The notes under the pieces were generated by a model. That model did not search any database and was not told where the DNA came from. It saw only the letters and a program-made list of their open reading frames with translations. The position numbers and the translations under genes were made by a program. DNA of 64,000 nucleotides from NCBI GenBank assembly GCA_008632985.1, contig QPGO01000015.1, positions 559,998-623,997 of the forward strand, in the 5' to 3' direction. Origin of the DNA: Psammoneis japonica. Taxonomy: Eukaryota. Shown one piece after another: positions 21,868 through 58,679 of the stretch (position 1 is the first letter of the stretch; each line of letters starts with the position of its first letter).

Positions 21868-23595
21868 TTAAAGGTTCGAAGAAATGGAATTCTCGAACGC
21901 CGCTGTAAGGATGTGTGGATAGCAGACAGTAGTGAGAAAGTCGTCAAGCTCTTCCCCCGTTAGCATGTTCTCCACCTGTCAAATCCAGAAAACAAAGCAA
22001 GAATTAGCCACACCGTTTTGCACCTACAGCAAATAGACTAGCTCGTAAATTTGTGATGTACGTACCAACTTTCCAGCTAGGTTCCACTTTCCCGTGTTGC
22101 CATGACGGTTGACCTCTTGTTCAATCAGACTCGAGAGCCTTTCCGACGTGATGGCTTGATTATCATCCTCCGTGGACAATCCTTGAACCCTCCACTGAAA
22201 GATCTGAGCACGACTAATTTCAGCCGTGGCGGCATCCTCCATGGCATTGTTGAGAGGGATGCATCCAACACCACGAAGCCACGCCTCAGTGTAGGCCAAT
22301 ACAATTGCAACTCCACGCTTCAAGCCTGCACTTGTAATAGCCTGTCCACGAGGCACTTGTGGGAGCTTCAAAAGATCCGATTCCGTCACTCGAGCACCCA
22401 CTGTTCCCGGATTGGACTGAATCTGATTCGGTGTCTTCATGTGCTTGTCAAAGACCGTGCGGGCCACTTGAACGAGTGCGGGATGCGCCACCCACGTTCC
22501 GTCGTGTCCGGCGAGGACTTCGCGAAGCTTGTCCTGTTCCACCTTGCTCATGGCCTCGGCATTTTTCTGTGGGTCGTTCTTGACTGGGATTGAGGCACTC
22601 ATCCCCCCCATGGCGAAGGTACCACGTTTGTGACAAATGTGAATAAGTCGCTTGACGTAAGCCTCCATGAGTGGCGTAGTCATGGTGAGATGATTCCTGT
22701 CTGGAGCAGCCTTGTCGGGGTGGTACTTGAACTTCTTGATGTAGCTAAAGAGGTAATCCCATCGGCCGCAGTTGAGTCCGAGCGAGTGGTCCCTGAGCTC
22801 ATAAAGAATCTCCTCCATCTCGAAAGCGGCCGTGATGGTCTCGAGAAGCACCGTGGCGCGAATAGTCCCACGAGGAACTCCAAGGTATTGCTGCGCGGCT
22901 ACAAAGACGTCGTTCCAGAGCCTTGCTTCGAGGTGGCTCTCGAGCTTTGGAATGTAAAAGTACGGCCCCGTACCCTTGCGGATGAGACGATGGACGTTGT
23001 GAAAGAAGTACAGCCCAAAGTCAAAGATGGATCCAGATGCCACTTGTCCGTTGACGGTGACGTGTGCCTCATCAAGATGCCAACCACGCGGACGAACAAA
23101 GAGAACCGACGTGTTTTCTTTCGGGGCGTAGACCTTGCCAGTCTTGGGGTTTGTGTACGTAATTGTACCACGAACAGCGTCGCTTAAGTTCTTCTGTCCT
23201 TCAGTGAGATTGGACCAAGTCGGACTGGTCGAGTCTTCAAAGTCAGCCATGTAAACGTTGGCTCCGCTGTTGAGTCCGTTGATAACCATCTTTCGATCGA
23301 CGGGACCGGTGATTTCGACACGACGGTCCTGAATGTCATGAGGAACAGGAGCACATCGCCACGTGGGATCCGACGCCGCAGGAGAAGTCTTGGAATCGAG
23401 AAAGTGAGGGTTCTCACCGGCGTCAAACTCCAACGCCCGGCCCTTCCTTGCCTCCAAGAGGGCTTGACGACGCTCTCCAAACTTGGCGCAGAGAAAGCCG
23501 ACCAAGCGAAGAGCGTCCGGCGTAAGAATCTCCTCCACTGCTTCGGTGATTGGGGCGTGAACAACCACGTGCACTCCGGGCGAACGGATATCCAT
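21868..23595 (-). CDS. MLS: Malate synthase (glyoxylate cycle), 2 exons, C-terminal -SNL
   Basis: DRRVEITGP, ADFED, VRPRGWHL, GLNCGRWDY, GHDGTWVAHP and MEDAATAEISR. Intron at about 21976-22065; last exon VENMLTGEELDDFLTTVCYPHIL...SSNL*. Confidence 0.96.
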
Positions 23596-24014
23596 GATGC
23601 AGGGATAACTTATGCTACCTAGTCAATCGATGTTGACGAATAGAATATGAGAAGTGTGCCAACACGAGAAGCAGAAACAAAGGATCGTGTCGGTGGATGG
23701 CATCACACTCGAAGCGCGTCACGAGCTTGACACGAAGCACGAGCCAAAACGGGTCCAACCCGGTACTTTATCCGCCACCAACCGATTTAGTCGTGACCGC
23801 GTCACCCAATCAGAGTTCTCAACTGACGTGTAGTACTAGATAACGTAGAAATCCACGAATTGCGTTTTTGAGCGTCCTCCCGTCGCTCCGTCGAATAGCG
23901 CGCCATTTTAGATTTACGTAGAACTTCGTACACTTTCTACGGTGCATCTCCATCGTGCCACCACGCAGACAAATCAGACAAACCTCATTCATCTTCTCTC
24001 ATCATCCCTCGACC

Positions 24015-30950: not shown

Positions 30951-31588
30951 GCGCAGTAGTCGCATGGATAGAGGACGTCATGGGTCATTTTCGAAGGATT
31001 CCTGATGTTATGTACAGTATTGTGACAAAAAGACTCTCACGTCATCATCGTTAATTATTTTCATTACGGAAGTCAACTCAAATTTTAAATGGAAAAAGTC
31101 TTCTTCGCGAGGCGGGCGCGACAAATAATGTTCGTTGGCAATTGCAAACGTTTTGTGCGCGGTGAGCCGCGGACCGAGCGACCCGCCCACACAAGTTCAA
31201 AGTCACAAAAAAGTCTCATAAAAACGTTCGGTGTCGTTGTTGACTTGCATCTTGCATGCAATCGGTGAGTGTTGCTCTTTCGCCTTCCCTTCTTCTTGTC
31301 CTTGCGTCTTGTATCCTTGTTCCTTATCTCACGTCTCGCTCGTTACTTTGAAGCTTGTGACAACGTTGGGAGAAGCTCTTTGTCAAAGCACCAAGCACTC
31401 CGTTTGAAACGTCGATTTTCCAAATCGCCGCGAAAAACCGTTGACCATCTTTCTTGGCAAGAGGTAAGAATTGCTTTGTATCACTGTTGTGTTCATTCGC
31501 ACTTCATTTCATCAAGTTTCCCTCTCATGTGAAAGCTTCGTATTCTTCTCAACCTCTAGTGAAACTGCTGGGGACGGGTTGAATTGAA

Positions 31589-40249: not shown

Positions 40250-42735
40250 GGCTCGCACGATGCGGGTACGATGGCCCACACAAACTTCGAAGGTGGAGTT
40301 CCAGCCGGCAGTGCTGGGAGGTAATGGCCCATATTTTCTGTCCAGTGGGCAAGGTTCCATGGGTGCCAGTGAAGGTGGCTGCACATTGAGCAGCCTCTCC
40401 AAGAATTGGCAGAGCCAGATGCTGGACCAATGTGAAAACCCTTTGTGCAATGATCACTTGGGAGGGTGGGACAGTCATCCAACAGGGTGGTTGCCAGTGC
40501 ATGCCAGGCACAGCTGTTTGGCAGCTTTCGTCAGCAAAGCCTTGAGCTTGAACACCTGGGCCAAGCGGGCATGATAAAGGAGATGGCTGTCATCCATGGA
40601 GAGAACATCTGCAGCTTCAAGTTCATCGCAAAGGGCATCAAAGGCATTGTCAAGTGGGGCCAGAGCATTGTTTGTTGGAGCTGGGAATGACAGGGGTTGA
40701 TTGCTTGGCTGGGATGCAAGCTGTGAGCAATTGAGCTTTGCTCAGAACAAAAGTGCTGAGTGTCCCCACAATTGGCTTTTCTCTCTGTGCACTTGTGTGG
40801 GTGAGCCAGAGAATCACTGGCTCATTTTTGGCAACAGGGGTCAAGAACTTTGAGCACTTGGAATTCTTGACAAAGATGCTCATTCATCACTCGATTGTCA
40901 TCCAGTGCCCAGAGAGGAGTCAGCATCAAAAATGAAGGAAAAGTTGTGTCAAGCAATCAAAAAAGGACTCTGATGTGGCTTCTGGCACAGCACAAAGCAT
41001 CCAGACCATGCCCCAGACTGCAGCACAATCTCCTGGTGCTCATTTGGGTGTGGTGTCAGCTTGCACTGTGATTTTGACACATGCTGCAAGGGGGATTTTG
41101 TCATGGATCTTGATCTCACAAAAGAGGAGAGAGAGAGAATGCACATGGCCAAAGGAGCCAAGAATGGAACAACAGCCTGCTGGCCAGTGCAACTGTCCAC
41201 TCAAGTGCACATTGCTCCTCAGCACAGTGAGCAGGTGCAATCTCTTCCATTGGAGGAGAGAGACCAAGCAATGGTGGCTGTGGAAAAAGAGATTTATGAT
41301 CAAGAAAAGGGCAGTGGTGCTGATGATGTGAAGAAGGCACAGCACCAGATGTGCCAAGCTGCCACCTGCTGTTGCTGCAACTCAAGGAGCAAGACACCCA
41401 GAGTTGACAAAACCAGGCATTGACATCACCTCACATTGGCTTGGTGCAATCTTTGATGAGGCAAGAACAGGTGCCTGTTGGGGTTCCAGAGGTGGTGGCA
41501 CAAGTCAAAGAAAAAAGCGGATGATTGATGATTCGCACGATGTGGGTGCGATGGCTTCGAAGGTCAGTTCCAGCTGGTGCTGGGGGGTGACTGGCCCATT
41601 TTCTGTCCAGTGGGCAAGGTTCCATGGGTGCCAGTGAAGGTGGCTGCACATTGTTGAGCAGCCTCTCCCTTCAAGAATTGGCAGAGCTGGATGCTTTGCC
41701 AATGTGAAACCCTTGACACAACAATCACTTGGCCAGGAGGGTGGTGGGACAGTCGTCGAACAGGGCGGTTGCTGGCGAAGCCTTGAGCTTGAACACCTGG
41801 GCCAAGCTGGCATGATGCAGGAGACAGTTGTCATCCATGGGAGAACACATCTGCAGCTTCAAGTTCATCACAAAGGGTGTCAAAGGCATTGTTGTGTGGG
41901 ATCAGAGCATTGTCTGTTGGAGCTGGGAATGACAGGGGTTGATTGCTTGGCTGGGATGCAAGCTGTTTGCAATCAAGCTTGACTCAGAATGAAGATGCTG
42001 AATGTCCCCACAATTGCTTTTCTGTGCACTTGTGTGGGTGAGCCAGAGAGTCACAAGCTCATTTTTTGGGGCAACATGGGTCAAGAACTTTGAGCACTTG
42101 GAATTCTTGACAAAGATGCTCATCCCTTGATTGTTGTCTGGAGAGGAGCCAGCATCCAAAATGAAGGACAACTTATGTCAAGCAATCAAAAAAGGACTCT
42201 GATGTGGCTTCTGGTGCAGCACAAAGCACCCAGACTGTGCCTCAGACTGTGGCACAATCTCCTGCTCATTTGGGTGTGGTGTCAGCTTGCACTGTGATTT
42301 TGACACACATTGCAAGGGGGACTTCATCATGGCTCTTGATCTCACAAGAGAGAGAGAGAGGAAGCACATGGCCAAAGAAGCCAAGAAAAGAGTGACAACC
42401 TGCTGGCCAGTGCAGCTGTCCACTCAAGCACACATTGCTCCTCAGCACAGTGAGCAGGTGCAATCTCTTCTGCTGGAGGAGAGAGACCAAGCAATGGCAG
42501 CTGTGGAAGAAGAGATGGATGATCAAGAAAAGGGTGGTGGCACTGATGATGTGGAGAGGGCACAGCACCAAAGGTGCCAAGCCACCACACCTGCTGTTGC
42601 AACTCAAGGAGCAAGACACCCAGAGTTGACAAAACCAGGTGTCGACATCACCTCACATTGGCTTGGTGCAATCTTTGATGAGGCAAGAACAGGTGCCTGG
42701 TGGGGTTCCAGAGGTGGTGGCACAAGTCAATGAAA
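40250..42735. repeat. Diverged tandem duplication, unit about 1.2 kb
   Basis: gtcaagcaatcaaaaaaggactctgatgtggcttctgg at 40948 and 42177; gacatcacctcacattggcttggtgcaatc at about 41422 and 42644. Confidence 0.9.
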
Positions 42736-45700
42736 AAAAGATGTTTCACACCAGAGAGTGATGCTGACATTTGTGGCCTGAATCAGGAAGTGCGTGAGAG
42801 GAGACTTCTTGTTGTTCTGAGTGCCAACAATGACAAATCCAAAATGCAGTCCTCAAGAAGATTGTTGTGGCTGTTGGTGGGACAACCTTGAGAAAGAGTG
42901 CAAAGCATTTTGTGGTCAAGTTTGCCATGAGATTCATGTCCAAGGACAGACTGTTGTGCCAGCATTCTTTGCCAGTGTGAAGATTTTTGAGTTTGTGTGT
43001 TCAGACACATGGAGCTTGACAAATCACTGAAGAGCCTGGGCAGCTGACATCAAAGTTGTGTGTGCATGTGTGCAATGCCTCCTCAGCCTAAATGGGGCAA
43101 TTGCTGACCCACCCCCCAGTGTAAACTGGGCTGCTGGCACAGGTCTTTCAAGATGTGCCAATGTTCCTTGGAGCCTTCCACCAGCATTGACACTGACAAC
43201 TTGCTTCTTTCTCTGTTCTTGGTGTCATCAGCTTCCTTGCTGAACCCATCTTCTTTCTTGGCAGTGTGACATTCTTGCCACAGGAGATGTTTTTGCCACC
43301 TCAACCACACACTCACAAACCAATTGCAACAATCTTGAAGCACCTCTCTTTCATCCTGATGGATGAGCAGCAACTGCTTCCAAGCCTTGACTGCCTGGAC
43401 ATGCAGGTTTGTCTTCTCATTTGCATTGAACAAGATTGGCTTGAGAGCTTCCAGCAGTGCCACCATGCCCCACTCCTCTGTGACTCTCATGAACTCTCTG
43501 TCACTCCTTCAATCTCATGACCAATGACCTTTGAACATTGTCCCACAATTGTGCTGAAGAGTGCCTTCACCTTCTTCATCTTGCAGGTCACATTTTGTTT
43601 TGCAAAGTGAGTGCATTGCTTGCCCTAAATTCCCTTGTCCTTTTCTGAGGCAGTGTCTCTCAACAGACAATCTGCTGGCTCCTTTGGCATGCTCTCCTGC
43701 CCCAGAGACACTGGCACCTGTGTCTCTAGCCCAAACATTCTTCCAAAACACTTGCTGATCTTCCTCATGGTCTCTGTGTCATGCACCCACTCCTTTTTGA
43801 ATCTTTCATGCTTCTGCACTCAGCTGTGTCCTTGCCCACATTTTCCAGGACTCAAGTTGGAGTTTCACAGCTTGCCAACAGTCGTGTGCTCAGTCTCACT
43901 GACCCCAACACAACCTTGCTGCATCCTCTTTCAGCAGACCCTTGACAGCTTCTTTGATGGCAAGGCCCTCCAGAGATTGTTTCTTTGCCCTTGTCCAGCC
44001 AGCTTGCTTGCCACAATTCACTGACATGACAAGATGTGCCTTGGGACTCATGTTGACTTCCCAGCCTTTTCCTTTGAATTCTTGATGACTTCCCAGCCTT
44101 TGAATGACACCACTTCTTTGAGTGTCATTCCACGACTTTTCAGCTTCTGTGTTGGAGTTTCATGGCTTGCTGACCAGCACATGCTCAGTCTCCCTGACAC
44201 CAAAGTCACCATGTGGCTTGACTGCAAACACACCCCTGATGCCACCAACCGACTGTTGCTGTGTCAACCAGGTGCAGAAGCCAAAAAGTGAGCACAAGAC
44301 CTGAAACCCAAACCAAGTTGCAAGTGCAAATTCACCATGTTGTCCACAATCATCAGCACATCTTACACTGCAACTTTGTCTGTCCTGTGAACACTGCTCC
44401 AAAACCCCAATGTTCCAACAAAATGGTGCAGGCAACCAACTTAAAGGCTCGACACAAGAGCAAATTTTCAATGGCACAACTGATTTGAAAGCAGCAGCAA
44501 ATGTTGCAACACTTGGTTTGGCCACTGGAAAAAAATGATGAAATGACATGCAACATTTTTGTTCAAACTCAAGATGTGTGCCAGCAAAGTTTTGAAGGAC
44601 CTTCTCAATTTTCATGCATCATGTGCAGCACCTGGACTGCCTGCCTGCCATGATGGTGCCAGTGCCAGTGTGCACTTCTGCTGCACAATCATGTGTGTGC
44701 ACACAAGACCAGGGCTCTGCATGTCTGTGGGCCGTGCCCCCCAGAAGGGCTGCTTGTTTTGATGACATGTGAGAGCCTTGGAAACAGACATGAATTTGCT
44801 CTCCCCATGTGTTCACCACACAGCTTGTGTGCCAGGCAGTGAAAATGAGCTGTTTTCATGGCAACTCACTCAGCCAGCAGACATGCTCCAGCTCCAAGTG
44901 GGACCTGCCTCACTCTGCTGAACTGTGACATCAGAGTTTTTTTTCATGTGCCCCCCCCCGCAGAGTTTTTTTCATGTGCCCCTGCATGTCATGCACTTGC
45001 AATGCACATGCTTTTTTCCACAAAATTTGTTTCATGTTCTCTGTTTTGCAAAGCCACAGGCTTTTTGGTTGTGTCCATTTGTGAGAGGCAGCAAAGATCA
45101 AGAATGAAAGAGGAGATGCAATCTTACAAAATTGCCTCTTTTTCTGTTGGCGATCATCCATGCATTCATTGCCCACCAATGCACTTGCTGTGGAGCTTGT
45201 GCACAAAATTGCATGGGCCCAATGCAATGGGCAGTCTCACCCATGGCTGGAACATGCCAGCAGTGACTCTAAATGTGCACATTGTTTTTGACTTGCACCT
45301 CTTGCACGTGGCACACACATGCCTGCACAGTCTAACATCCATGCACTGTGTGCTCACATGAGATGATGCTTCCTCTGGCAAGTGACATGTGTTCACAAAG
45401 AAAGGCGCAAGTGTCATTTTGTTGAGGCCACAGATCACAGGAGAGTGCTGCTTCCACATCAATTTTTCTTTGTTGCCATTTTGTGCCACCTTTTTGCCCC
45501 ACAAAAAACTGCCAAATGGCCCTGTTGAATCTCTTCTGTTGGCCCCACTGTGGCCCACAATGCCAGTTTGATTTAATGGCAAAATGATGCAGGTGCTCTC
45601 ACGCTGATCCCAAGTGCATGCAACACAATTTTCCAGAGCTGTTGCCTTGTGCAAAACAGTGCTGCTCAAGGTGCAACTCTGACCTGGGATCAAACACCTC

Positions 45701-47500
45701 TCAGCTCTGTTCCAGCTCTGCCATGAGACACACTTGAGCATCCTAACATGAGCAGCACAAGTCATTGGCCAGCACAGAAAGCTCATTGTGACTCCAAAAA
45801 TTGGCCAGGTTGCATGGTTGCACCTGTTTGTCCCAACAACATGTGGCATCTTGCACCTCAGATTCTGCTTTGCTGGATCAAGAAGGTGCTCAATCACCTC
45901 CATCTGAGTCATGAACATGCTGGAAAAACTTCTGGATTTTGCAATGAAGTGTTTGCAAGTCCTCAGCACAACCATCCCCTCCAACACTTGTTGGCTGTGA
46001 ACAAATGACTGGGCAATTGTCCCTCCAGATGATGGTTGCAAATGGGATGAACTGACAGCCACACTGCCCCCCCCCCTGCAAAGAATGTTGTCCCCCACTT
46101 TTAAGCCCTTGCTTTTCAAGACTTTCCCAACCTTGCAAGTTAAAAATGCACTTTCTTGTTTCAATGCCTTGGCTCCTTTGACAAATGGCAGTTGGTCCTC
46201 CTCCATGAGCTGCTCCAACAATGGCACTTGCAGCTCAGTGTCCTGGTGGAAATGTTCCCCAGGATTGGAGAATCTTTGCTGCCTTTTGAAGCACTCATGT
46301 GCAGCAAGCACCAGAGCATGCTTTTCATCAGAGTTGAACCCCATTTTGTTTTGCTCCAGCACCCATTTGTGCATCATCCAATCAGTGGCAGCTTTTGATG
46401 CACCTCAAGTGTGAGCATGAGGATCTGCAAGTGGATTTGCCCCTTTGTTCTTGACCTTGGATGGGGTCAATGTATTTGCAACATTGTGAATGTCACACAA
46501 CAGTCTTCTCTCTGGAGTCTCAAGTTTTAAATTGTTTGTCTCAGCAAGAGCAGCCCACCTGGCAGTGGAGTCCTTGGACCTGTTCATCCACCCCCTCTCC
46601 TTTGGTCATCCTTGTCCAAGGTGCTCCAGCGCTGGGTGCTTCTTCCTGACCCCACTCATCACTCAATCTTTTTGCCTTTGGAAGCAGACCTGCAGCACCT
46701 TTTGGTCTTTGTTGTGCTTCTGTTGCTGCTGTTTTTCCACCATGATGCCATGAAGTCAAGCCCATGTGTTGTGTTGTGTCGTCAAAGTTGGCAGTCATTG
46801 AGCTTTGTTTGCTGAATGCCAACAAGTGCTCACAGACAACAATGCTGGAGAGAGTTGACTTGATGTGACACCAATGCTGGCTCTGTTGCTCACATGGCAC
46901 AAATGACATCAACAGCTCTTGTGTTGACATCAAGTGATCAGACAGACCCAGCTCTTCCTGTTGGGCAATCTCCCATGCAGCACTCTGGCACAACCTGCAC
47001 CAATCATGCACAACCTGTGCAAACACTTGGTTTCAGTTCAGGAGGGTCCATGGTGTGAAAGTGTTGGGGTTGGAGGAAACAAGTGCTGCAGAGCTGCTGG
47101 CCATTGTTGTTGTTGGTGTGTGTGGTGTGTTGTGATGTTGTGCTGATGGTGGCTGCTTTTTGTGGAATTTCCATCCAAGCTGATCACAAACAGACAAAAA
47201 ACTTCAACTTGCAAACCTGGCAGGATGAACCAACCCCAGCTGACAACCCAAAAAGGGAACACTGTGGTGGTTTGGAGCTGTCTCCAGCAAAGCCTGATTC
47301 AAAGAAACCAAGAGCAGAGACTCAAGCCCTGGCGGTGCTTCACAGCACAAAAACATGAGATTCCAAGAAAGCAAGCAAGAAGACATTTTGCAATTTCACC
47401 TTGATGTCAACTTGTCAAACTCTTGGTTGCTCACATTGCAAAATTGACCCTGCTTGTGGTTCAAGTGACAGGAAGTTGGGTGAAAAGCCCGGGAAACTCA
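42735..47500. mobile_element. Decayed repeat-derived DNA, TpA/CpG-depleted, family unresolved
   Basis: Same dinucleotide signature; includes a 403-aa ORF (45166-46377) with no Tyr. Confidence 0.5.
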
Positions 47501-47579
47501 CAACCTCTCTCCAAGGACCAGCCTTCTGCTGTCAAAAATTTGTCAATTTATCAGCAACTCACCCACCCCTGATGTCAAC

Positions 47580-50500
47580 AATGAAGGAGACAAAAACAAG
47601 GCCAATGCCAAAGCCAACAAGCAAGGAAAAAACTGCATCCAACAATCAAGAGAAAGATTTGATGAGGGAAAAGATGGCAAGGAGGTCAGTGCTGTTGCCT
47701 CAAGCAAGAAAAAGAGCACAGGAGGAGAGCCATTGCAACCCATCCAGTGATTTCAAATCAGATGCTGAGTGCACCATTTTCAAGGTGCGTGGCAAAACAC
47801 ATCACCTTGATGATGGCACTCATTTGGGTGGTGGTGGCATGTTGGATGACAAAATTTGGCAGTGACGCTGGTGCCGGCTGACAATGCCCTGCCTGTCACA
47901 GCAGCGCAATGTTCCAAATGGTTCTGCACAAAAACAACTCATTGCAATGCCAGCAGAGCTGCCACATGGAGTCAAGACAAGGAAGTGGAGTTTGAAGGGG
48001 TTGTGGTGTTCCAGATTGTTGTGGTTTTGCAATGTGGTCACAACACAAAGGGAGCCAAGGACATGTGTGAACCCTTCTCACAAGGCACATCATGGATGAC
48101 TGAGATGTGGAGAAACACAAGATGCTTGTCTGGTCCATGGAATGACTGCTTGCCAGTGATCCAAAATTCATTCAGAAGGATGAGATGCCAGAGCAGCAAG
48201 CCAGGACATTCAAATGAATGGCACTGTGAGGAAACCTGCTTGTTGCCACAGTGTGGTGCACTTCAGAGCATGAAAAAGGTGGAGAGCTTGCGCCACATGA
48301 CATTGATGAGAAGACCAAAAGGACACCATGTTTGAGGTTCTAAAGTGAAAACACCCAAACTCAAGGATTCTGGAAGAAGATCATTTTCACATGTTTGACA
48401 AGCTGTCCAAATTCCAAGATGTTGTTGTCACTGACAGGAGTGCTGTTGAGACCTTTGTGCAGAAACTGCCAGGGTCAGGGAGTGTGGGGCTTGCCAGCTT
48501 GGGGGGTCAGACACCAGTGCAGTGCCCAGTGGCTGCTGCATCATGAAAAAGATGGTGGGTTGCTTGGGACATGTGCACATTTGCAAATTGGCCAGCAAAT
48601 GAATCTCCTTCTCAGGCAGCCTGCTGGGCACTCATGGCAAAGCAACCACTCACACTGGACAAAAATCCGGGCATTCAGCATTGGCAAGAATTGACAAGCC
48701 ATGGTCACAGCTCACAGCTGTTTTTTGTTGCCAGAGCAGAGGTCAAAGAGGCTTGTGGCACACAGGTCAGCTGTGCATGGGATTGGAAGCAAGAGCCAAA
48801 AGTGGAGTTTGCATGATGAACTTGCTCTGGGAGCAACACAAGTTTGAAAACAACCACAATTTTCCACTCACCAGTTTTCCACCCACCAATGCCTCCAGCA
48901 GCTTCAACAAGCACAGTGGGATCTTGATCATGTGCAATGCAAGGCAATTCTGGTGATCTGGAGCAAGATTTGCCTTCAACTGCTGTGCATGCATGGGAGC
49001 ATCCCAATCATCTGCAGCCACTCCTGTGGCATGGTTGCCATCCCTTTCAGCAGGAGAGGGTGTCACTCAAGGCAGTCCACTCAGTGTGGCAACACATGGG
49101 CTGGGACTTCTTCCATTGGCATGCAAATTGAGTGAGCAGCTTGCCAGTGCATTCACCTTGTGGCACACAGACAACTCTGCAGCAACAGGCAAGTTCAAAG
49201 TTCTCTGAGAGTTCTTTTTGACCCTGTGTGCTGTCGGACCACAAAGCACGGGGGCTGCCCTGCCAAAGACTCACTCCAAGAACATCCCAGCAGCTCCAGA
49301 GCACATTCTGGACAATGCAAAGAGTTTTTTTGGAGACCTTGGAATCACTGTCACTGCAGGCAACCACCGCCTTGGAGGCTTTGTTGGCAAGAAGGCAGCT
49401 TTTGACACATGGACAGCAATGAAATCCAAGGCATGACATGCAGTCATCCAGGGTCCAGCCAAAATGGCAATTCACCACCTGCAGACCACTTGTGCAGGTC
49501 TTCAAAAGTCCCTGCAGTGCAAGTGGCAATGCATCCAATGTGCAGCAAAGGGCTGTGGCGAGTCATTCCCCAATGCAGAAGATGTGATTGCATTCCAGTT
49601 CCTCCCAGAGAGCCAATTGCCAAGACCTCAGCTAAAGACAACAACCCAAAATTTGCCACCTCGCCCACACTTCCAACCAATTTGCAGGACTGTCCATCCC
49701 TCATCCAGTGGAGTCAATGAAGCAAAACTTTGAAGAGAGTGCTCTCAGCACTCACTTTGCTGTTGCTCCAAAAAGTTCTTCTCAGTGATGGTCTTCACAA
49801 GGACATGATTCAAGATGAGAATCGGGAACCAGCTGAAAGGAAAGCCAAGTTGCATGAGGAAAAATTTAAAATTTGTCTCCGTCCTCCACCCAATGAGATG
49901 GCCCAAGCATCAAGGTGTGGCGCCAATGCCAGTTCACAGCTGTCAGCACCCCCATTTTTGCCAAATGAAGCAGAGCTGGTCATCTTCTTTTGCCAAGAGT
50001 TCCAAGATGCCCCACATGTGCAATGTGGCCATGAGCCTCCAGACCAACTCAAAACATGTGATGGGTCATGTGATTGTAAATGTTCTGTCCAACATTCCCT
50101 TCAATGCAAGAAGGGCAGCCCAGTGATCTCATGACATGTTGAGGTGCATGATGAGTTTAGCAACTTGTTGACCAAGGCTGCCAACCAAGCCATCAGCTGC
50201 TCATCATGAACCAGCCATCAACCCTGGTCACACCATCAGAAAAGTCCTTCAGCCAATGGCAAATCTTGCAGTTTGGTCTGCAAGCACCTGCAAATGGAGA
50301 CCATGGAGACACTCTGCAATGAGGCTGGTGGGAATGCATGACAGCCAGACACCATGTTCTTTGACATCAGAGTTGCCAGTGTGGGTGCCAATCCTCCCCA
50401 CCTTTCCAAGACTCCAGAACATGCCCTGTTGGACCACAAGAAGGAGAACAAGTGTGAGTGTCTCAAGCCATGCCTTGAGAGCAGCATTGTCACTTCACCC

Positions 50501-50850
50501 CCTCTTCACAGTGTCATGCCATGAGTTGTTGGGCAAGGAAGCCAAAGCACCAGCCCTCTGGTGGGCTTTGTCAAAGCTTTCAGACTGATGGCAGAAGCCA
50601 CACTAGATTCGTCAATGCCAGAATGAGCATGGCAACATTGAGGGCTGCTCACCATTCTGTCCAAGAGGCTCAAGAATCCCCTGATCCCAGATCATCCTGC
50701 CAGAGGCACCCTCTCTCTGGGAGGGCAGTGCTGGTCCATCCTTGTGCAGGCACCAGTCTGCTTCCTGCACCAGTTGGCAACATGGCATCGAGGCTCAGCC
50801 TTGACACACCCAAGATCAAGGATGCAACCAAATGTCATCCCCCAAGACCC
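47580..50850 (+). mobile_element. Decayed non-LTR retrotransposon (RT plus C-terminal zinc knuckle/restriction-like endonuclease, CRE-like)
   Basis: LDKNPGI, EVKEACGT-QLC, EGVTQGSPLS, WHTDN (inferred WYADD, 49161-49175), HRLGGFVG, AGLQKSLQCKWQ, CDG..C..SVQHSLQCKKG and RFVNARMSMATLRAAH, in several frames. Confidence 0.85.
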
Positions 50851-52099
50851 CCAACACCACAGGGCTTCAGTTTAAAATGTTGGTGGTGCCAGAGGCAGAT
50901 CACTCAAATTTTCATGTGCAGCACTCAAAACGTCACTCATGCAAGACCCAATTTCTGCATTTGCACATGAAATTAACTGTGCAAATCCACTTTTTGCTTG
51001 TGACTTTCAGGAGGAAGCAATGTCTTGTGATGTCCTTGCTTGTGCACATGAACTGCATTTTGGTTCATGTGCACTTCAGGGTGTGTGCACCCTGCACAAA
51101 ATGCTGCACAGATTTGTGCCAAGTGAATCTGCGCGCAACTCCAGTGCAGTGGACAGCTGTTTTCATGTGTGTCTGACACAAAAGCTGCATGTTTGCACCA
51201 CTTGAAACTTGTCCACTGAGCCAGCAGTCATTTGCTGGCCATTGTGAAAAACATTTTGTCTCTGAGAAAGAGCATGTTGAGGCCAGCAAACAACACACCC
51301 CATGATGCAACTGGTGGAAAATCTGCACAAATGCACAGAAACCAGCATGTGGCTTCTGTGCAAAGCAGAGCTTGAAAAAATGAGCAGGGGCATTGAACAT
51401 TTGATGATGGATTCAAACATCTCACTTGCACCGAAGCCCCAAACTGCTTCAAAAATGCAGCATGCTCCACAGTGCTGCCAGCATGACAGCAATCTTTCAT
51501 GCTGCACAGTCATTGCACAGAAACCATGTGTGGACCAGCACTGAGAAAAACTCAAAATTGACTTTCCATCTTCTGCAGTGAATTTTGTTTCCATCAAAAA
51601 TGGAGAACACTTGCAACTGATCAGGTGCATTTTAGATCAACACATTTGCAACAATGGAGGTGGTCAGCAAAGCACTGCAGCAACTTCTTTGTTGGGGCAA
51701 ATGCCGCCACAACTTTCCTTGCAAAAAACAAATCTGCAGTGCCAGATCAAACACAAGAAACCACACAGCAATGTGTGACAGAGGCAGGAAGACTGTTCAC
51801 CAATCACACCACTGCTTCAAAAGTTCAGAGGCAAGAAGAAGAACATGAGGTCACAAAGTGTCTCAGTGTTGATTGCTTCCCTGGAGGTGTTTGAAGCTAA
51901 AGGCCCTCCTCATCTGTTGTCTCAGAGGGACATTTCCAGTCTTTGCACCCAGTCCTCTTCATTCCATGTTCAATGCACTTGCACAGCTGCAACAAAAAAT
52001 GAAATTTTTGTGAGATGTGTGCATTTTGAGAGACACAAGTTTAAAACTTGGTTGACATTGCATCGAGCCAGAGCATTGTGGGAGAAAAAGAACAGATGA

Positions 52100-52865
52100 G
52101 AATGCCACAAAATTCAGCATCACTGAAAAAGAGGGTGCACACAGAAGATTGGCAGGTGGAAGGCTGGAGTTGGAGGAGAATTGGGAGCAACCTGCACCAC
52201 ACATGAAGAACAAATGAAGTTAAATTGCAGGATTCTGTGCTGATGCTGCAGTTCCTGCGGGGTTGTTCTGGGTGCTGCAGGATTCACACGGGGCTCCATT
52301 GAAACAAGAATGGAGGGGTTGGTCAATTTGGGCTGGAGTTCATTGAGTGCACAGGTGAATCCAATGGAGCCACAAAGGACCTGCACTGCCCCTCCTCTGA
52401 TGCAACCATGAAGCAGTGGAATGAGCTGCCAACTCCCTTTGAGCATTCTGAGAAGAAGAATCCACAGAAGGGTGAGTGCTGGGTGTGCAAGCTGTGCAAT
52501 GATCCTGCAGATCCAGACAGTTCCATGCACAAGCTGAGTTTGCCACACTTTCCTGTGGGAATGTGAGAGAAGTGGACACTCTTCAAGCACAACTCAGGCA
52601 CTGAGCCTGGGGTTGATGTCATGCTCGTGACACTCACAGAAGAAATCAGATGTCAGGAGGATGTGATCATCAAGGATGGAATCCACAAGAATCACATTGT
52701 TCATGACATGGCAGCAATGACAGTTGCCAAATTCATCAAAGAGGTTGGACACGGCATCACACCATTTCTTGGCATCTGTGAACTGGTGGTCAAGCACAGA
52801 TGGGTCCCAGGTGTCATCACCGGGGAGAACCACACAGGGCAGATCATCCCTTTTTTGTTGCAGGT
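52100..52865 (-). mobile_element. Inverted fragment of a Ty1/copia (CoDi-like) pol, pre-integrase/integrase region
   Basis: LPCVVLPGDDTWDPSVLDHQF...WCDA...FDEFGNC resembles the CoDi LPHVVLT.D..WDPSVLD...FDEFGNY segment. QNPA remnant near 52230. Confidence 0.6.
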
Positions 52866-52869
52866 GTGA

Positions 52870-55260
52870 GGATGCATGGCAGACTGCTGCACCCATCATC
52901 AACTCCTGCCATGACTCTGAGGACTTGCTGGATTCACCAGATGGGGAGGAGATTGGGATGCCCAAGATGCCAGTCTTCAACCCCAAGGACATCATTGGAT
53001 GCACCTTCCTCATGAAGCCACAAGAGGATGGACAGTGCCACAGAGCCAGCATTGTCAAGGCCATTGAGGACCAGCATGATTGGGAAATTGGTGACAACCT
53101 GGAACTCATCAAGTTCATTTGTTCAGTTGACAATGATGAACACAAGGAAATCCTTGCCTGCAGTGACATCATCCATCACATGGAGCAAGAAGACAAGGAC
53201 GCCTTTGTTCAGAAATTCTGATGCAGCATTGTCTCACATGAAAGACCATTGAGACCTCACGATCCCTCTTGGAAAGACTCAAGCCACAATGTCATGCTTG
53301 AGTGGGAGAGCAGGGAGATTGCATCTGAACCTCTTGGCATCATTGTCAAGGATGACCCTGTCACTTGTGCCATCTGCGCATGCAAGCACAGTCTGCTCAA
53401 AACCAACAGATAAAAATGCTTCCTTGCCACAGCTCTGTTTCAGAAGAAGCTGTTTGCATGGTCAATCAAGCCAAGCTGCACTTGTTTCATGCTGTGCCAC
53501 ACTGCAAGTGTGGGCATGAAAGTGCCCCAGGACTGCAAGCATGCTTTGGCCCTTGACAAGTGGTGCAATGGCAACTGCAAGTGGGGAGATGCAGTGGATC
53601 TTGAGATGTCTCAGCTTGGTGAGCACAAGGTCTTCCATGATTGTGGACACTGCAAGGACTCCAGCACCCCAGCAGGACACAAGAAGAGATTCAGGTGCAC
53701 CTCGTCTGTGATGTCAAACATGATGGCGGGCACAAAGCATGACTTGTTGCTGATGGACACCTCATGGACATGCCCATCAACAGTGTCTGCTCTGGAGCAG
53801 TGTCCCCCTTGGCCTCTGACTGATGATCTTCCTGGCCAAACTCAATGAGCTAGAGACATGGGCGACCAGCATGGGCAATGCCCACCTTGAAGCCACAACA
53901 AAGGAGAAACTGCTGCACATTGTTGCAGGCCCTGAATTTGGAGAATTGGAAGGACACATCCTTGTCATCCACAAGGCTCTGTGTGGCCTCTGCAGCTCCA
54001 GCCTCAGGTGGCATGGGCATTTTGCTGATTGTCTGTGAGCTGAAGGATTCTTCTTGTGCCATGCTGAACCCAACATCTGGTTGCACCAGAATGGCAACCA
54101 TTGTGAACATGTGGCAGTGTGTGGATGACCTGTCCTTCACCATGAAAGATTCTCAGGCCTTCAGTGACACTCTCACAGAGAAGTGCAAGTTCAAACTCAA
54201 AGGCACTGGACCACTGCAATTTCACCTGTCACAACTTCTCTCATGACTCCAATGGCACACTGTGCCTTGCTCCTTGCAAGTGCATTGAACGCATGGTCGA
54301 AAATTGCACACGCCTCTTTGGGGAGAAGCCTTGTGCTGGTGTGCCATCCCCTCTTGAAAAGGAAGACCACCATGAGCTTGACACCTCCAAACTGCTCTTC
54401 TTGATGGCATCCATCAATTTCAGTCATTGGTTGGTTCCCTGCATTGGGCTGTGTTGCTCAGTTGCATCAACACCACTGCAGCCATCATGTCTTTCTCTAG
54501 TTTGCACACAGCCTGTGGATGCTTGTCCAAGATGCAATGTGGTGCCCTGTGTGTGCACACTGAGGAACATGACTGTTTGGACCTCCCCAAGCCTGTGCAT
54601 GATTGGGCTCAAACCATGAGTGGTGATGTGGAAGAACTGCTTCCAAAATGCATGCCCGGGCCTCTTGGCAAGTTCGTCACCATGACCCATGGTGTTGATG
54701 CAAGCTTTTCGCTGGATGTTCCATGACAGGTGCATCATTCATTTCCTCAACAAGTTTGCAGCTGATTGGTTCTCCAAGAAACAAGCCACAGTCAAGACTG
54801 CAACTTGTGGATCTGAGTTTGTTGCTGCCAGGATGTCTGTTGAACAGATCATTGATCTGCACATCACATGGCATTGCCTCATCATCCTGATCTGTGACAC
54901 CTCTGTTGCATGTTTGGGGACAACAAGTCAGTTGTGGACAGTGCTGCCATCCCACACTCCAAGTCAACACAAACAACACACTGCCCTCTCATTCCATCAT
55001 GTGCACGAGGCAATGGCCTCTGGTTTCCTCAAGTTCCACTTTGATGAAGGTTCTTCCCGCAACCCCGCTGACATCCTCAGCAAACACTGGGGTTGCTCCC
55101 AGGTTTGGAACCTCTTCCATCCTCTCATGTTTTGGAACTTCAATCCCAAGGCCTTTTTAGCCAATCTGACTTTGAACCCATCTCTGTGGACTCCTCAAAC
55201 AAACTTGGGAGTGACAGGATTTGAACAAGATTTTTGTTTGTCGCGCACAACTGTGTGTGC
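52870..55260 (+). mobile_element. Decayed Ty1/copia (CoDi-like) LTR retrotransposon: post-integrase linker, RT, RNase H and PPT
   Basis: IIGCTFL..PQEDGQ, DDPVTCA, GNAHLEA...AGPEFGELEG...KALCGLCSS, CVDDL (54118), WFSKKQATVKTATCGSEFVAAR and NPADILSKHWG. PPT-like GGGAG followed by TGACAG at about 55207-55217. Confidence 0.92.
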
Positions 55261-55379
55261 TGTGATTTGATTTTAAGGCACTCAACTGACAAGAATGACA
55301 ACAGCAGTGCTGACATCATGACACCAGTCTTTTGGCTCCTGCCATGGTCTCTGCACAGAGACTCATGTGCCATTTGGAC

Positions 55380-55700
55380 AGCAGCAAGGAGTCATTGTTT
55401 TTCTTCCACCCATTTTCTCTTAAATTTCTGTCAGAGCATGAGCTCCAGGGACAAAGTGTTGCTGAAGGACTGGCAAAGTTCTTGCTTGTGCGCAGGCTTC
55501 TTGAGGGCAATGCTCTGACAACATTGAAGAACACTGCTGATTGCCAAGCCACCAAAGCCAATGTCACCTTCAAAGCCTGCACAGAGAAAATGATGCAAAG
55601 CTTCTTCCCATGCAGGTTGGTGCTGCTGCAGAGGCATTGTCTGCCATGGTGCTTCGCACACAAGCCCGCTGATGTCAAGACTCATGAGAGTGTGCTGCAG
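55380..55700 (+). mobile_element. Decayed gag-like fragment (probably Ty3/gypsy-type)
   Basis: KFLLVRRLLEGNALTT...FKAC...FFP..LVLLQRHCL...KPADVK resembles diatom LTR gag sequences (recalled pattern, not searched). Confidence 0.5.
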
Positions 55701-56250
55701 ATGCGTTCCAGCCTGGGTGGGACTGCATGTGACATTGGGCCCACAGAATTCACGCGCAAGCTCTGCCACAAAAGCATTGGGTGATGCGTGCACCAACAAT
55801 TGCCAGTGTGGAAAAAGAGGCAATTTTGCAAATGTGCAAGCTCCTCCATGCTTGGAGGGCACAATCTCCAGTTTGCCCGGGTGTGTTGTCCAGACATTGG
55901 AAAATGCCCAGCTGATTTTCACTTGTGTGCAAAGAATGGTCACAAGCATCTCAAGCCTTGTCTTGAGCAATGACATCATTTCATGCCATTTGTCATGTCG
56001 TGCAAGATGATCCACTTAGCAAAAAAGCCAGCCCTGCCAAGACCATGCTCTGCATGATTGCTGCAAAGCCCATGGACAAGTGGCAAATGCCCTGTTCAGA
56101 AGTTTGCAGCTTTGTGAATGTGATGATGAGTGTCACTGCAGTCAGAGCTGCTCATCAATGCATCAGGGGCTCATGCTCCATCTTCACAAATTAGCTCCAG
56201 GTGCCCTCAGTGGGAAGATGGTGCTGGTTTGTCACTCCACAGGCACTGAG
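55700..56250 (+). mobile_element. Second 3' fragment of a CRE-like non-LTR element
   Basis: KWQMPCSEVCSFVNVMMSVTAVRAAHQCIRGS parallels the C-terminus at about 50600-50670. Confidence 0.7.
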
Positions 56251-56803
56251 AAGTGCCATGCAATCTGGATGTCACACACTGGGACAAAGTGCTGAGGCCA
56301 TTTTGCAAGATGCTGTGGACATCTTGTTGTGCGCATGACACAAAAAGCACACAAAAAACACAGCTTCCTCATGTGCAAAACCCAGCTTTCTCCTGTGCAA
56401 GCACCTTGTACATTTTGTTTGGTTTTTGTTGTAGAAACTGTGCCAGCTCTGTGCATGCACATCAGCTGCATGCTTCAGTGCCAATCACAACTTTGATCGC
56501 CAACTGCCAACCGCCAACTTGAGATTGCGCCAACACAAAAAATGACCACAACCATGAAAATCCAAAAAGCAGTCCTGCTCCGAGTGATGCTCAAAGCAGG
56601 ACATTGAGTGCCACACCTGTTCCCAGCTTGGAGACCATTGCTCTAGCATCAATGATTTTGCAGTTGCCGAGTGCAAGTCCAGCTCTGAGGAGCACACCAA
56701 CTCACCCAACAAGACCACTGAGTTGCAATCCTGCACTGAGTGACAAGTCCAGCACACAACTCCAAGCAACAGCCCAGCGCCAAGCTCGAGTCCATGTGCA
56801 GCT

Positions 56804-58325
56804 CCATCACAGCTAAACAACTGCACACTCAATGCAAGCACATTCACAAAATGTGAGCATGAAAAACAGAAGCGTTGCAAAGGCTGACTCATGTTTCTCT
56901 CCTGTTGTTACATTCAAAGTTTGGAATGGACCCTGTCACCCAATCCTGCCCTTGATCTGATGCTGCAGCAACTGTGGAGCCCAACTCACTCCCTGCATCC
57001 AATCCTGCACTAACTCTGAATTGGGCTGGCCCACCTGCTCTGCCTGCTTCCAACCCAAGTCCACAGCCAAATCCTCCTTCTGTGCCAAATCTGATGCCCG
57101 ATCCAAATGCACTGTTGACATTTACAATGCCAAATTTGACAACCAATGCTCCAAGTGGCCTTGCTGATGGATGAAGAAAATGAATGGGAAGAGGACAGTT
57201 GAGGGAATGCCTGCACTTGGATGTGGCTGTCTTCTAGATTTCAATCCCTTGAGTTGGTTGAACCTTGATTCTCTCTTGTCCCAGACAGCTTTGCTCAAAC
57301 AGACAAGGGTCCATTTGTTGGATCCAGCAAGGGAGCACCAACCCCGCACATTTCAACCCAGCATCATTGCCTGCTCTGAATCGGACTTGCCCACCTGCTC
57401 CGCCTCCGTTGCTTCCTCTTGCTTCCCACTTCCTGCTTCCTGCTGCTACTCCCACACCAAATCTGACACTTGATCTGACTCCACTGCCAACATCAGCAAA
57501 TGCTGGCACCAAATCTGATGACCAGTCCTGCACCTGGTCCCACCCCAGCACCATCCCCGCAGCCCATGTCCATCACAGCTAAATGGCTGCACACTCAATG
57601 CAAGCACATTCACAAAATGTGAGCATGAAAAAGAGAAGCGTTGCAAAGGCTGACTCGTGTTTCTCTCCTGTTGTCACATTCAACGTTTGGAATGGACCCC
57701 GTCACCTGATCCCACCCCCGATCTGACGCTGCAGTAACTGCTGAGCCCAACGGACTCCCTGCATCCAATCCCACACTAACTCTGAATTGGGCTACCCACC
57801 TGCTCCACCCACTTCCGACCCAAGTCCGCAGCCTGATCCTCCTCCACCCCAAATCTGACACCCGATCCGAATGCACCGTTGACATTTACAGTGCCAAATT
57901 CGACAACCAATGCTCCAAGTGGTCTTGCGAATGGATGAAAATGAATGGGAAGAGGATAGTCAAGGGAATGCCTGCACTTGGATGCAGCTGTCTTCTAGAT
58001 TTCAATCCCTTGGGTTGGCTGAACCTTGATTCTCTCTCGTCCCAGACAGCTTCGCTCAAACAGACAAGGGTCCATTTGTTGGATCTAGCAAGGGAGCACC
58101 AACCCCGACACATTTCAACCGGCATCATTGCCTGCTCTGAATCAGTCTTGCCCACCTGCTCCGCCTCCGTTGCTTCCTTTTGCTTCCCACTTCCTACTTC
58201 CCACTGCTGCTCCCACACCAAATCCGACACTTGATCCGACTCTACTGCCAACATCGGCAAATGCTGGCACAAAATCCGATGACCAGTCCTGCGCCTGGTC
58301 CACCCCAGCACTGTCCCCGCAGCCT
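56804..58325. repeat. Tandem duplication, unit about 766 bp (56804-57569 and 57570-58325)
   Basis: ccatcacagctaaa...ctgcacactcaatgcaagcacattcacaaaatgtgagcatg begins both copies, which align throughout. Confidence 0.95.
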
Positions 58326-58679
58326 TTGTAATTTCTGTCTTTCACACCAATTGAACTCTACCTCTGGCTCCACCTGCTCCTCCGGCAAGTGCTTCATCAA
58401 GCAGTCCTGCTCCGAGTGCTCCAAGCAGATCAACCGAGTGCAAGAAGCCCTGCCACTGTCTCATTTTTTCCAGATGCACTCTTCCTACACCACCACTGTC
58501 ACCTCCTCCTGCCCTCAATCTAATGGTGAAGCCAAGTTGCACCCAATCCCACTGCATCAAACTCGACGAACTCCATGTTGTGAGACCCTGCAGGTGGAGG
58601 GATGAGGGACATCATCTCATTTCTTGTTGGCAATCTAGCTTGCCATTGTGAGTGTGAGTTTTGTGACTGACATGATAAT

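What the first reader, a model, noticed from the sequence alone, without database searches (positions are those of the whole stretch)
47580..50850. Non-LTR RT active site rewritten by the same two mutation types
Seen: tgg cac aca gac aac (WHTDN, 49161-49175) sits where RT has WYADD. Inference: TAC->CAC (TpA->CpA) and two C|G->C|A changes explain all three substitutions. Nearby ATHGLGLLPL (expected YG) and QTTCAGLQKSLQ (expected YAG) agree. Tyr codons always contain TA, so the process would reliably destroy YxDD.
Basis: partly seen in the sequence, partly recalled or inferred. Interest (0 to 1): 0.75.

Follow-up and report, generated by a model that had tools for sequence, protein, structure and literature searches.

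The report
TA-erasing mutator disables diatom retrotransposons
A dead jumping gene in a diatom-like alga has lost its reverse-transcriptase signature because the host turns almost every TA step in mobile DNA into CA or TG, a process reported so far in one unrelated alga, and in young elements it can be seen spreading from the element's front end.

Summary
Observation confirmed. WHTDN (49161-49175) is the decayed WYADD of an RLE-type non-LTR retrotransposon; none of 113 readable intact relatives has His/Cys there, while 21 of 24 genomic copies do, resolved independently to CAC or TGC. The active site is not singled out: the element keeps 7 TpA of 225 expected, and 60 of 162 sampled genome windows are TpA-stripped. 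The 'two mutation types' are two processes: fast TpA->CpA/TpG and slower CpG decay. In ten young Copia copies, five have 71-92% of TpA converted from the 5' LTR to variable end points, with the 3' LTR largely spared (62/85 versus 11/85), CpG nearly intact, both strands hit without coordination, and a TA-pyrimidine preference like TadA deaminases. Independent contigs exclude an assembly artefact. Two metagenome copies from another organism show the TpA signature without CpG loss. Closest known: TpA hypermutation of viral inserts in Bigelowiella (2026 preprint). This scan noted the process earlier on other DNA of this genome; my look-ups found no note of the 5' polarity. Enzyme unproven; a DNA-acting ADAT/TadA-type deaminase is the best guess.

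The parts
40400..57500 (.). TpA- and CpG-stripped block of decayed mobile DNA that contains the element
   Evidence: 48 TpA (O/E 0.043), 96 CpG (O/E 0.094), CA 1.79, TG 1.92; sharp left edge near 40350, graded right edge 57400-58600
47296..50760 (+). Decayed single-ORF non-LTR retrotransposon (RT, CCHC knuckle, restriction-like endonuclease); true 5' end not fixed
   Evidence: HMM of 120 homologues matches 47647-50503 in five segments, best E 5e-53; DNA homology to siblings from 47302 to 50753; 7 TpA, 17 CpG
47377..47403 (+).
   Evidence: matches the N-terminal Cys-rich stretch of sibling L011
48765..49610 (+). Reverse-transcriptase core segment
   Evidence: HMM positions 367-639; family profile hits R2 RT structures 9nl3, 9dou at E 2-3e-7; Pfam RVT_1 on intact P0001
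49095..49097 (+). CAT (His) at a column that is Tyr in 99% of homologues
49161..49175 (+). WHTDN, decayed WYADD active-site motif: one TpA change, two CpG changes
   Evidence: no difference listed in independent contig X1 record 4
49488..49493 (+). ACT TGT (Thr-Cys) where homologues have Ala-Tyr
50057..50137 (+). CCHC zinc-knuckle-like segment, with a CGA->TGA type stop at 50132
50348..50473 (+). Restriction-like endonuclease core remnant (D..FDIRV ... KCECLKPC; TGT at 50459 in a Tyr column)
   Evidence: motif label recalled
50754..50756 (+). CAG at the place of the ORF's stop codon; siblings show TAA, TGA, CAA, CAG or TGG here
1..3000 (.). Second stripped block in the window
   Evidence: 7 TpA, O/E 0.033; CpG O/E 0.115
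28300..31000 (.). Third stripped block in the window
   Evidence: 8 TpA, O/E 0.046; CpG O/E 0.165

Best explanation
The stretch is a dead RLE-type non-LTR retrotransposon in a diatom-like alga. Its motif was rewritten, after insertion, by a host process that converts A:T to G:C almost only in TpA steps of silenced mobile DNA (shown, about 0.95), followed by ordinary, slower CpG decay as expected of 5mC (pattern shown, methylation inferred). The TpA process acts on a chromatin domain: in young LTR elements it starts at the 5' end, reaches a few hundred bases into the upstream flank and 1.5-4.3 kb into the element, hits either strand site by site, and so must act over many cell divisions or with repair that fixes each hit (pattern shown, mode inferred). 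The most likely chemistry is deamination of the adenine in 5'-TA(C/T)-3' to hypoxanthine by a TadA/ADAT2-type enzyme, read as G at replication (inferred, about 0.55-0.6). Since every Tyr codon, TAA/TAG stops and many Leu/Ile/Val codons hold TpA, the result is a nearly Tyr-free, often long open but presumably non-functional ORF; CpG decay later removes catalytic Asp, Arg and Ala.
For: 8 Tyr columns in own copies: Y 6, C 119, H 48, R 3, other 3 of 179 cells, against Y 537, H 9, C 5 of 584 in 79 metagenome loci. Siblings 87-92% identical resolve the same site to CA or TG (same outcome 0.45-0.59); minority cells 867/4129 in variable YR sites against 218/13204 elsewhere (subfamily A; the site class is defined by variation). 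TpA-type sites kept 2-30%, CpG-type 15-78% in 20 copies. Young Copia family, hit parts: TA>G 505/1196 strand-sites, CG>A 50/1775, transversions 16/14148; unhit copies 10/792, 10/1194, 11/9291. Fronts at element nt 1528-4304; 5' LTR 62/85, 3' LTR 11/85; in the three hit copies with perfect target duplications 39/51 versus 7/51, P 2e-10. In three further Copia families five copies show an untouched 3' run and none an untouched 5' run (read by eye). No strand coordination: same direction 0.495-0.524 against 0.49-0.51 permuted; sense/antisense 0.91 and 1.2, neither significant. 3' neighbour rates A 1, C 2.4, G 1.6, T 2.9 (CRE-like copies) and 1, 3.2, 1.4, 3.7 (Copia); TadA-derived editors work best at TAY (PMC10879117, passages). 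Low A>G spill-over at AA, CA, GA in hit parts (34/5684) against 12/6721 3' of the front, with non-CpG G>A unchanged (10/5493 against 13/5766). The genome encodes ADAT2, a TadA-like protein and two ADAT1/ADAR-domain proteins. The same spectrum was measured as de novo mutation in Bigelowiella.
Against: No enzyme is tied to the process: all deaminases found are ordinary-looking, the TadA-like one has an N-terminal extension that suggests organelle targeting (inference), and the second ADAR-domain protein is present across diatoms. A>G and T>C cannot be told apart on double-stranded sequence. TadA-type enzymes act on single strands (recalled), yet no clear strand bias is seen. Hit Copia copies share outcomes at 501 of 776 sites (0.65; one pair 0.77), more than a coin toss, so context bias or some shared history contributes. 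Two of ten Copia loci (L238, L245) lack matching target duplications and share a 3' flank with L243, so they may be mis-joined; the Copia interiors were not checked against reads. In the non-LTR copies the polarity is weak: TpA kept per fifth 10/117, 2/148, 22/152, 25/160, 26/158 (A), 11/56, 6/67, 3/72, 6/71, 10/76 (B), and 5'-truncated copies are also fully hit. Methylation was not measured.
Confidence: 0.6

Rival explanations
1. The thymine is the target: T in TpA is modified (hydroxymethyl/formyl-uracil type) or T:G mispairs at TpA are repaired towards C, as very-short-patch repair does in bacteria (recalled).
For: Fits the symmetry with CpG decay (both are pyrimidine-purine steps ending in CA/TG) and the lack of strand bias; read from the T, the context is 'purine before T is fast'.
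Against: No Tet_JBP match in the genome, but that search had no positive control; biased mismatch repair alone is limited by replication errors and cannot convert 85% of sites while other sites change about 1%.
Confidence: 0.15
2. An error-prone polymerase (Pol eta-like, A>G at W-A; recalled) fills repair patches opened in silenced DNA.
For: Both strands hit; AA>G is raised in hit parts (12/1594 against 2/999); CpG decay is raised in the same domains (50/1775 against 10/1194).
Against: TA exceeds AA about 55-fold and CA is as high as AA; transversions are not raised; patch synthesis should give same-strand runs, which are absent.
Confidence: 0.13
3. A RIP-like process that detects duplicated DNA by pairing and mutates it in one sexual cycle, with reversed chemistry.
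For: Restricted to repeats with sharp edges at genic flanks; the genome has several C5-methyltransferases with an HxSPPCQGFS motif that I recall from RID/DNMT4; diatom DNMT4 groups with RID (PMC9998398, passages).
Against: The 3' LTR, identical to the 5' LTR and part of the same repeat, is spared; five of ten near-identical copies are barely hit; upstream flanks without a match among the loci held are depleted; no strand coordination; the DNMT4 label was not confirmed. In Bigelowiella the target is single-copy and mutation is mitotic.
Confidence: 0.06
4. Editing of the element's RNA or cDNA before insertion (ADAR- or APOBEC-like).
For: Two ADAR-domain proteins exist; ADARs prefer U before A (10.64898/2026.01.13.699255).
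Against: CA and TG outcomes are mixed at about 1:1 along single copies; the two LTRs, which are made alike at insertion (established), differ; flanking DNA is hit.
Confidence: 0.03
5. Sequencing or assembly artefact (modified bases mis-called as CA/TG).
For: Random CA/TG outcomes would also follow from strand-specific mis-calling.
Against: Contigs of an independent run carry the same TpA-free sequence: 45706-49092 with 13 other letters, 49153-49961 with 4, none in the motif; platform not on record. The 40 listed differences are themselves mostly TpA/CpG-type.
Confidence: 0.02

Closest known systems
TpA hypermutation of integrated viral DNA in Bigelowiella natans (Mettrop et al., bioRxiv 10.64898/2026.01.13.699255; parts 1-4 of 5 read, supplements closed)
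   Same: A>G/T>C only at TpA, both strands, regional, on foreign/mobile DNA; low-TpA coding sequences there are enriched for RT and DDE domains; ADAT2 proposed
   Different: Here a stramenopile; targets are retrotransposons of both classes; near saturation (O/E 0.03 against 0.45 in the viral insert) over 60 of 162 sampled windows; followed by CpG decay; 5'-anchored fronts, flank context and lack of strand coordination are not in the text I read ('diatom' 0, 'CpG' 0 occurrences); here no de novo rate and no experiment
Repeat-induced point mutation (RIP) of ascomycete fungi (properties recalled; link to DNMT4 from PMC9998398 passages)
   Same: Dinucleotide-specific transition mutagenesis that kills repeats and leaves sharply bounded domains
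   Different: Opposite direction (RIP makes TpA from CpA/TpG; this removes TpA to give CpA/TpG); not strand-coordinated; does not cover the whole duplicated unit
TadA/ADAT2 adenosine deaminases and adenine base editors
   Same: A->G outcome; TAY preference (PMC10879117 passages)
   Different: Editors are engineered and act on exposed single strands; here TA specificity is much stricter and the enzyme is unidentified
AID somatic hypermutation / APOBEC editing of retroelements (recalled)
   Same: Promoter-proximal, decaying mutation domain on both strands (AID); defence against retroelements (APOBEC)
   Different: Those deaminate cytosine; APOBEC cDNA editing is single-strand and pre-insertion
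RLE-type non-LTR retrotransposons (R2, CRE and kin; PMC5348765 passages)
   Same: Single ORF with RT, CCHC knuckle and C-terminal restriction-like endonuclease; profile hits R2 structures
   Different: Copies lie in varied flanks with no shared target seen; clade not fixed

Membership tests
RLE-type non-LTR retrotransposon | RT domain with YxDD motif | tested here: met
   Pfam RVT_1 on intact homologue P0001, R2 structures hit by family profile, WYADD in 103 of 113 homologues and 3 of 24 own copies
RLE-type non-LTR retrotransposon | Single ORF, CCHC knuckle then restriction-like endonuclease after the RT | tested here: met
   conserved C..C/H..C/H and D..D.RV..D, K..Y columns in alignment A1, remnants at 50057-50473; motif names recalled, no Pfam hit for the nuclease
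RLE-type non-LTR retrotransposon | No LTRs; common 3' end with variable 5' truncation | tested here: met
   siblings end at the same 3' position and start at different 5' positions
CRE clade | RT phylogeny groups with named CRE elements | not tested
   no named CRE reference obtained; relatives come from diatoms (Fragilaria, Attheya) and cnidarian/sponge clusters, which fits the range I recall
Bigelowiella-type TpA hypermutation | A:T->G:C transitions confined to TpA | tested here: met
   TA>G 505/1196 against 34/5684 at other adenines in hit parts
Bigelowiella-type TpA hypermutation | Regional, on foreign or mobile DNA, host genes spared | tested here: met
Bigelowiella-type TpA hypermutation | Measured de novo rate about 1000-fold above background in clonal lines | not testable with these tools
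   only relative rates from sibling copies and one other sample
Bigelowiella-type TpA hypermutation | Same enzyme (ADAT2 proposed there, unproven) | tested here: inconclusive
   an ADAT2 with HAE, PCxxC and the Asn of RNDRFGG is present, as expected of any eukaryote
Fungal RIP | C->T at CpA, raising TpA | tested here: not met
   TpA falls to O/E 0.03, CA and TG rise to 1.8-1.9
Fungal RIP | Whole duplicated unit mutated, strand-coordinated | tested here: not met
   3' LTR spared; no coordination
Fungal RIP | RID/DNMT4 methyltransferase present | tested here: inconclusive
   several C5-methyltransferases; Atlas look-up gave only prokaryotic clusters
5mC CpG decay | CpG->TpG/CpA in silenced repeats with methylation shown | tested here: inconclusive
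   spectrum present; methylation not measurable here; transposon CG methylation by DNMT5 is reported for Phaeodactylum (PMC9998398 passages)

The most novel reading that the evidence does not exclude
Diatoms, chlorarachniophytes and other plankton share a mutagenic genome defence that is the mirror image of RIP: a natural DNA adenine deaminase is recruited to the 5' (promoter/primer-site) end of newly silenced mobile elements, spreads along chromatin, and erases TpA on both strands before CpG decay sets in, removing tyrosines and TAA/TAG stops from a third of the genome.
Probability: 0.35. Interest if true: 0.9.

Novelty: new variant of a known kind. Interest (0 to 1): 0.72.

Why it matters
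RIP is the textbook case of mutagenic genome defence and is cytosine-based and fungal. An adenine-directed equivalent was measured once, in two viral inserts of a rhizarian alga. This genome shows it run to completion on transposons in another eukaryotic lineage, and its young Copia copies give a time series: where it starts, how far it spreads, which flanks it prefers and that it precedes CpG decay. That makes the targeting and the enzyme directly testable. A natural deaminase working on chromosomal adenine would be new enzymology of interest for base editing. It also matters practically: such elements look like long Tyr-poor ORFs, escape profile searches (no RVT_1 hit for the 736-aa L008 frame) and distort dating of repeats.

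Tried and rejected
Active-site targeting: rejected, all TpA go alike and WYADD is the column where Tyr survives most often (3 of the 6 surviving Tyr). One joint process for TpA and CpG: rejected (of 162 windows 31 have TpA<0.15 with CpG>=0.3, none has CpG<0.3 with TpA>=0.3). Strand-coordinated bursts: not found. Spreading from old stripped flanks: not supported, copies L242 and L244 sit next to stripped DNA and are unhit. An intact copy of the non-LTR family in this assembly: none seen among 123 matches from 112 scored of 202 candidates; counts are lower bounds. A special deaminase: none found; Tet_JBP blank without control. DNMT4 assignment by Atlas: uninformative. CRE clade from papers: searches gave no usable reference sequence. 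Effect of the Tyr substitution: one search gave nothing on it. Expression: no RNA holder listed. X2 and X3 covered 3 and 1 of 30 bins and were not used. Full-length loci of the other Copia families were not examined, so their polarity rests on 3.2-3.4 kb around the RT. Among 51 metagenome pairs of 84-99.5% identity only L117/L123 has a TpA excess on good counts; L093/L094 (3/150) and L141/L142 (6/90) have high ratios on few events and are not counted as evidence. tRNA scan of the window empty.
Full report
1. The observation. The codons tgg cac aca gac aac (WHTDN) lie at 49161-49175 on the + strand, in frame with ATHGLGLLPL and QTTCAGLQKSLQ. The window is part of a 91.4-Mb assembly (G000, contig C15) with intron-containing algal genes; named relatives of its proteins are diatoms, so I call the host diatom-like. 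A search with a less damaged sibling frame returned 446 relatives, 120 listed. Of these 113 gave a readable motif, 103 WYADD, and none has His or Cys at the Tyr. An HMM of the 120 matches the window from 47647 to 50503 in five segments and three frames; DNA homology extends to about 47300 and 50753. The family has an RT (Pfam RVT_1 on P0001; R2 structures), a CCHC knuckle and a C-terminal restriction-like nuclease (labels recalled). It is an RLE-type non-LTR retrotransposon; CRE is plausible but untested.

2. The motif is one case of a block-wide loss. The element keeps 7 TpA of 225 expected and 17 CpG of 216. It lies in a 17-kb block with TpA O/E 0.043 and CpG 0.094; two more such blocks are in the window, while genic DNA has 0.48-0.57 and 0.88-1.03. 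In a systematic sample of 18 stretches (20 asked, 2 did not exist), 60 of 162 windows of 1.1 kb have TpA O/E below 0.15. Contigs of an independent run cover the element with about 0.4% other letters and none in the motif, so this is not an assembly artefact; of the 40 differences listed (61 more not shown) 7 are TA versus CA/TG, 16 CG versus CA/TG, 6 (three sites) CA versus TG, and 11 other.

3. Sibling copies polarise the change. Among 24 copies with a readable motif (of 28 mapped): WCADD 5, WHADD 4, WYADD 3, WHAND 3, WCAND 2, WHADN 2, WCTDD 2, WHTDN 1, WHTDD 1, WCTND 1. At eight conserved Tyr columns the own copies have Y 6, C 119, H 48, R 3, other 3; 79 metagenome loci have Y 537, F 18, I 13, H 9, C 5, other 2. 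Other conserved residues are mostly kept (F 97%, K 96%, N 95%, G 88%). One further Tyr column (246) is Phe in this family and was set aside. Copies that are 87-92% identical resolve the same site to CA or TG about at random, so each was mutated on its own after insertion. The 3' ends of L057, L066 and L070 still show the TA-rich state that other copies have lost, and the ORF's stop codon appears as TAA, TGA, CAA, CAG or TGG.

4. Two processes, not one. In 20 sibling copies TpA-type sites are kept at 2-30% and CpG-type sites at 15-78%. No sampled window has low CpG with normal TpA, while 31 have low TpA with CpG still at 0.3 or more. TpA goes first; CpG decays afterwards, as expected of methylated transposons (DNMT5-dependent CG methylation of transposons in Phaeodactylum: PMC9998398, passages). 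In the window copy the Tyr fell to the first process, the Ala and second Asp to the second.

5. Young elements show how it starts. A Copia RT search (150 of 804 candidates scored, 30 loci taken) gave a family of 98-99% identical copies with normal TpA and HYVDD. In ten full-length 6.6-kb copies, five are heavily hit from the first TpA of the 5' LTR to a front at element nt 1528, 2207, 3082, 3127 or 4304 (47/66, 79/93, 110/128, 107/127, 159/172 converted; 8/216, 19/191, 17/157, 3/156, 4/110 beyond), two are lightly hit with the same polarity (16/75, 23/111) and three hardly at all. In the five, the 5' LTR is hit at 62 of 85 sites and the 3' LTR at 11 of 85. Seven of ten loci have perfect 5-base target duplications, one has 4 of 5, and two (L238, L245) have none and share a 3' flank with L243, so these may be mis-joined; the three hit copies with perfect duplications alone give 39/51 versus 7/51, P 2e-10. 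TpA also falls in the 400-600 bases upstream of L239 and L240. In hit parts TA>G is 505/1196, CG>A 50/1775, other A>G 34/5684, non-CpG G>A 10/5493, transversions 16/14148. In three other Copia families five partial copies have an untouched 3' run, none an untouched 5' run (by eye, 3.2-3.4 kb only). In the non-LTR copies this polarity is weak.

6. Fingerprint of the mutator. Adjacent hits in one copy go the same way no more often than in permutations. A strand-symmetric rate model gives 3' neighbour C and T two to four times faster than A in two independent data sets, 5' A up to twice as fast as the others, and no significant sense bias. Accordingly 33 of the 48 TpA left in the block are YTAR, against 192 of 977 in genic DNA. 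TAY is also the best context of TadA-derived editors (PMC10879117, passages). Against full independence, hit Copia copies share outcomes at 501 of 776 sites, which context bias explains only in part.

7. Another organism. Metagenome loci L123 (OOGG01000373.1) and L117 (OOFT01002962.1) are 94.5% identical copies of a family absent from G000 (one 43-base match). L123 has Cys/His at 6 of 8 Tyr columns and L117 at 3 of 7; between them 20 of 54 TpA read CA/TG in the other copy, against 8 of 220 CpG and 57 of 1451 other sites. So the TpA process occurs elsewhere without CpG loss. The other 77 loci have TpA O/E 0.33-0.92. The host is unknown.

8. Candidate enzymes. G000 encodes ADAT2 (C26), a TadA-like protein with an N-terminal extension (C38), dCMP deaminase, RibD, two small nucleobase-deaminase-like proteins and two ADAT1/ADAR-domain proteins (C40, C79) (assignments from motifs, partly recalled). 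The C79 protein has relatives across diatoms. No Tet_JBP match, without control. At least eight C5-methyltransferase loci, several with a motif I recall from RID/DNMT4, unconfirmed. None of this ties an enzyme to the process.

9. What is known. Earlier notes of this scan pointed me to Mettrop et al. (bioRxiv 10.64898/2026.01.13.699255). I read parts 1-4 of 5: in Bigelowiella mutation-accumulation lines 231 of 302 nuclear mutations fall in two viral inserts, nearly all A>G or T>C on TpA, about 6e-7 per site per generation; ADAT2 is proposed. The text has no 'diatom' or 'CpG'; its supplements were closed and may hold context data. Searches found no other report of this signature, none in diatoms; the library lacks most subscription papers. 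The scan noted the process many times on other DNA of this genome, including Tyr->His/Cys in Copia and the YTAR survivors; look-ups for polarity or strand coordination returned nothing.

10. Verdict. Observation confirmed; interpretation supported with the qualifications that the active site is a bystander and that two processes of different speed are involved. Shown: spectrum, independence, order, context, strand symmetry, 5' polarity in young LTR elements (pending long-read confirmation), a second organism. Inferred: chromatin-guided, multi-generation adenine deamination by a TadA/ADAT-type enzyme (about 0.6); defence function. New variant of a kind described once; interest 0.72.

Noticed in passing
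window 55955-56258 (+): A second 3' fragment of the same non-LTR family, ending QWEDGAGLSLHRH-stop at 56208-56249.
   Followed up: partly
window about 54100-55100 (+): Decayed Copia-type RT/RNase H remnants (HVAVCG at 54108, WFSKKQATVKTAT at 54767, NPADILSKHWG at 55061), with very high summed contig depth over 52450-56400; labels recalled.
   Followed up: no
window 40300-43100 and 57000-58300: Long internal repeats (units of roughly 1.2 kb and a few hundred bases) seen in the printed translations; not found by Tandem Repeats Finder (period limit 500).
   Followed up: no
window 45166-46404 (-) and 28961-29587 (-): Long Tyr-free open frames inside stripped blocks, no Pfam family above cut-off; open frames are expected once TAA/TAG are erased.
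   Followed up: partly
window 48526 and 48571: The independent contig has one extra T at each place, so two of the frameshifts in this copy may be assembly errors or strain differences; at 49368 it reads TGC where the window reads CGC in a Tyr column.
   Followed up: no
L085, L086, L087 (G000 C301, C297): Repeated copies of a C5 DNA-methyltransferase gene that are themselves TpA-stripped (O/E 0.07-0.10), 37% identical to an unmutated paralogue: duplicated or transposon-borne methyltransferases are hit too.
   Followed up: partly
L181 (G000 C79:344558-345390): A second ADAT1/ADAR-domain gene without known function, conserved across diatoms.
   Followed up: partly
L075 (G000 C79:87006-90176): Nucleobase-deaminase-like domain fused in one frame to a 2OG-Fe(II) oxygenase.
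   Followed up: no
L052/L056/L063/L064/L066/L070: Some subfamily C copies carry a duplicated 3' segment of about 500 bases (second HSP at 68-70%).
   Followed up: no
L139, L141/L142, L093/L094, L096/L098/L155 (metagenome loci): Weak hints of TpA-biased change in other plankton elements (WHADD in L139; high ratios on few events).
   Followed up: partly
window 5425-12433 (+), 22024-23622 (-): Ordinary host genes with normal TpA/CpG, among them a SWR1-like chromatin remodeller and malate synthase (names from motifs, recalled).
   Followed up: no
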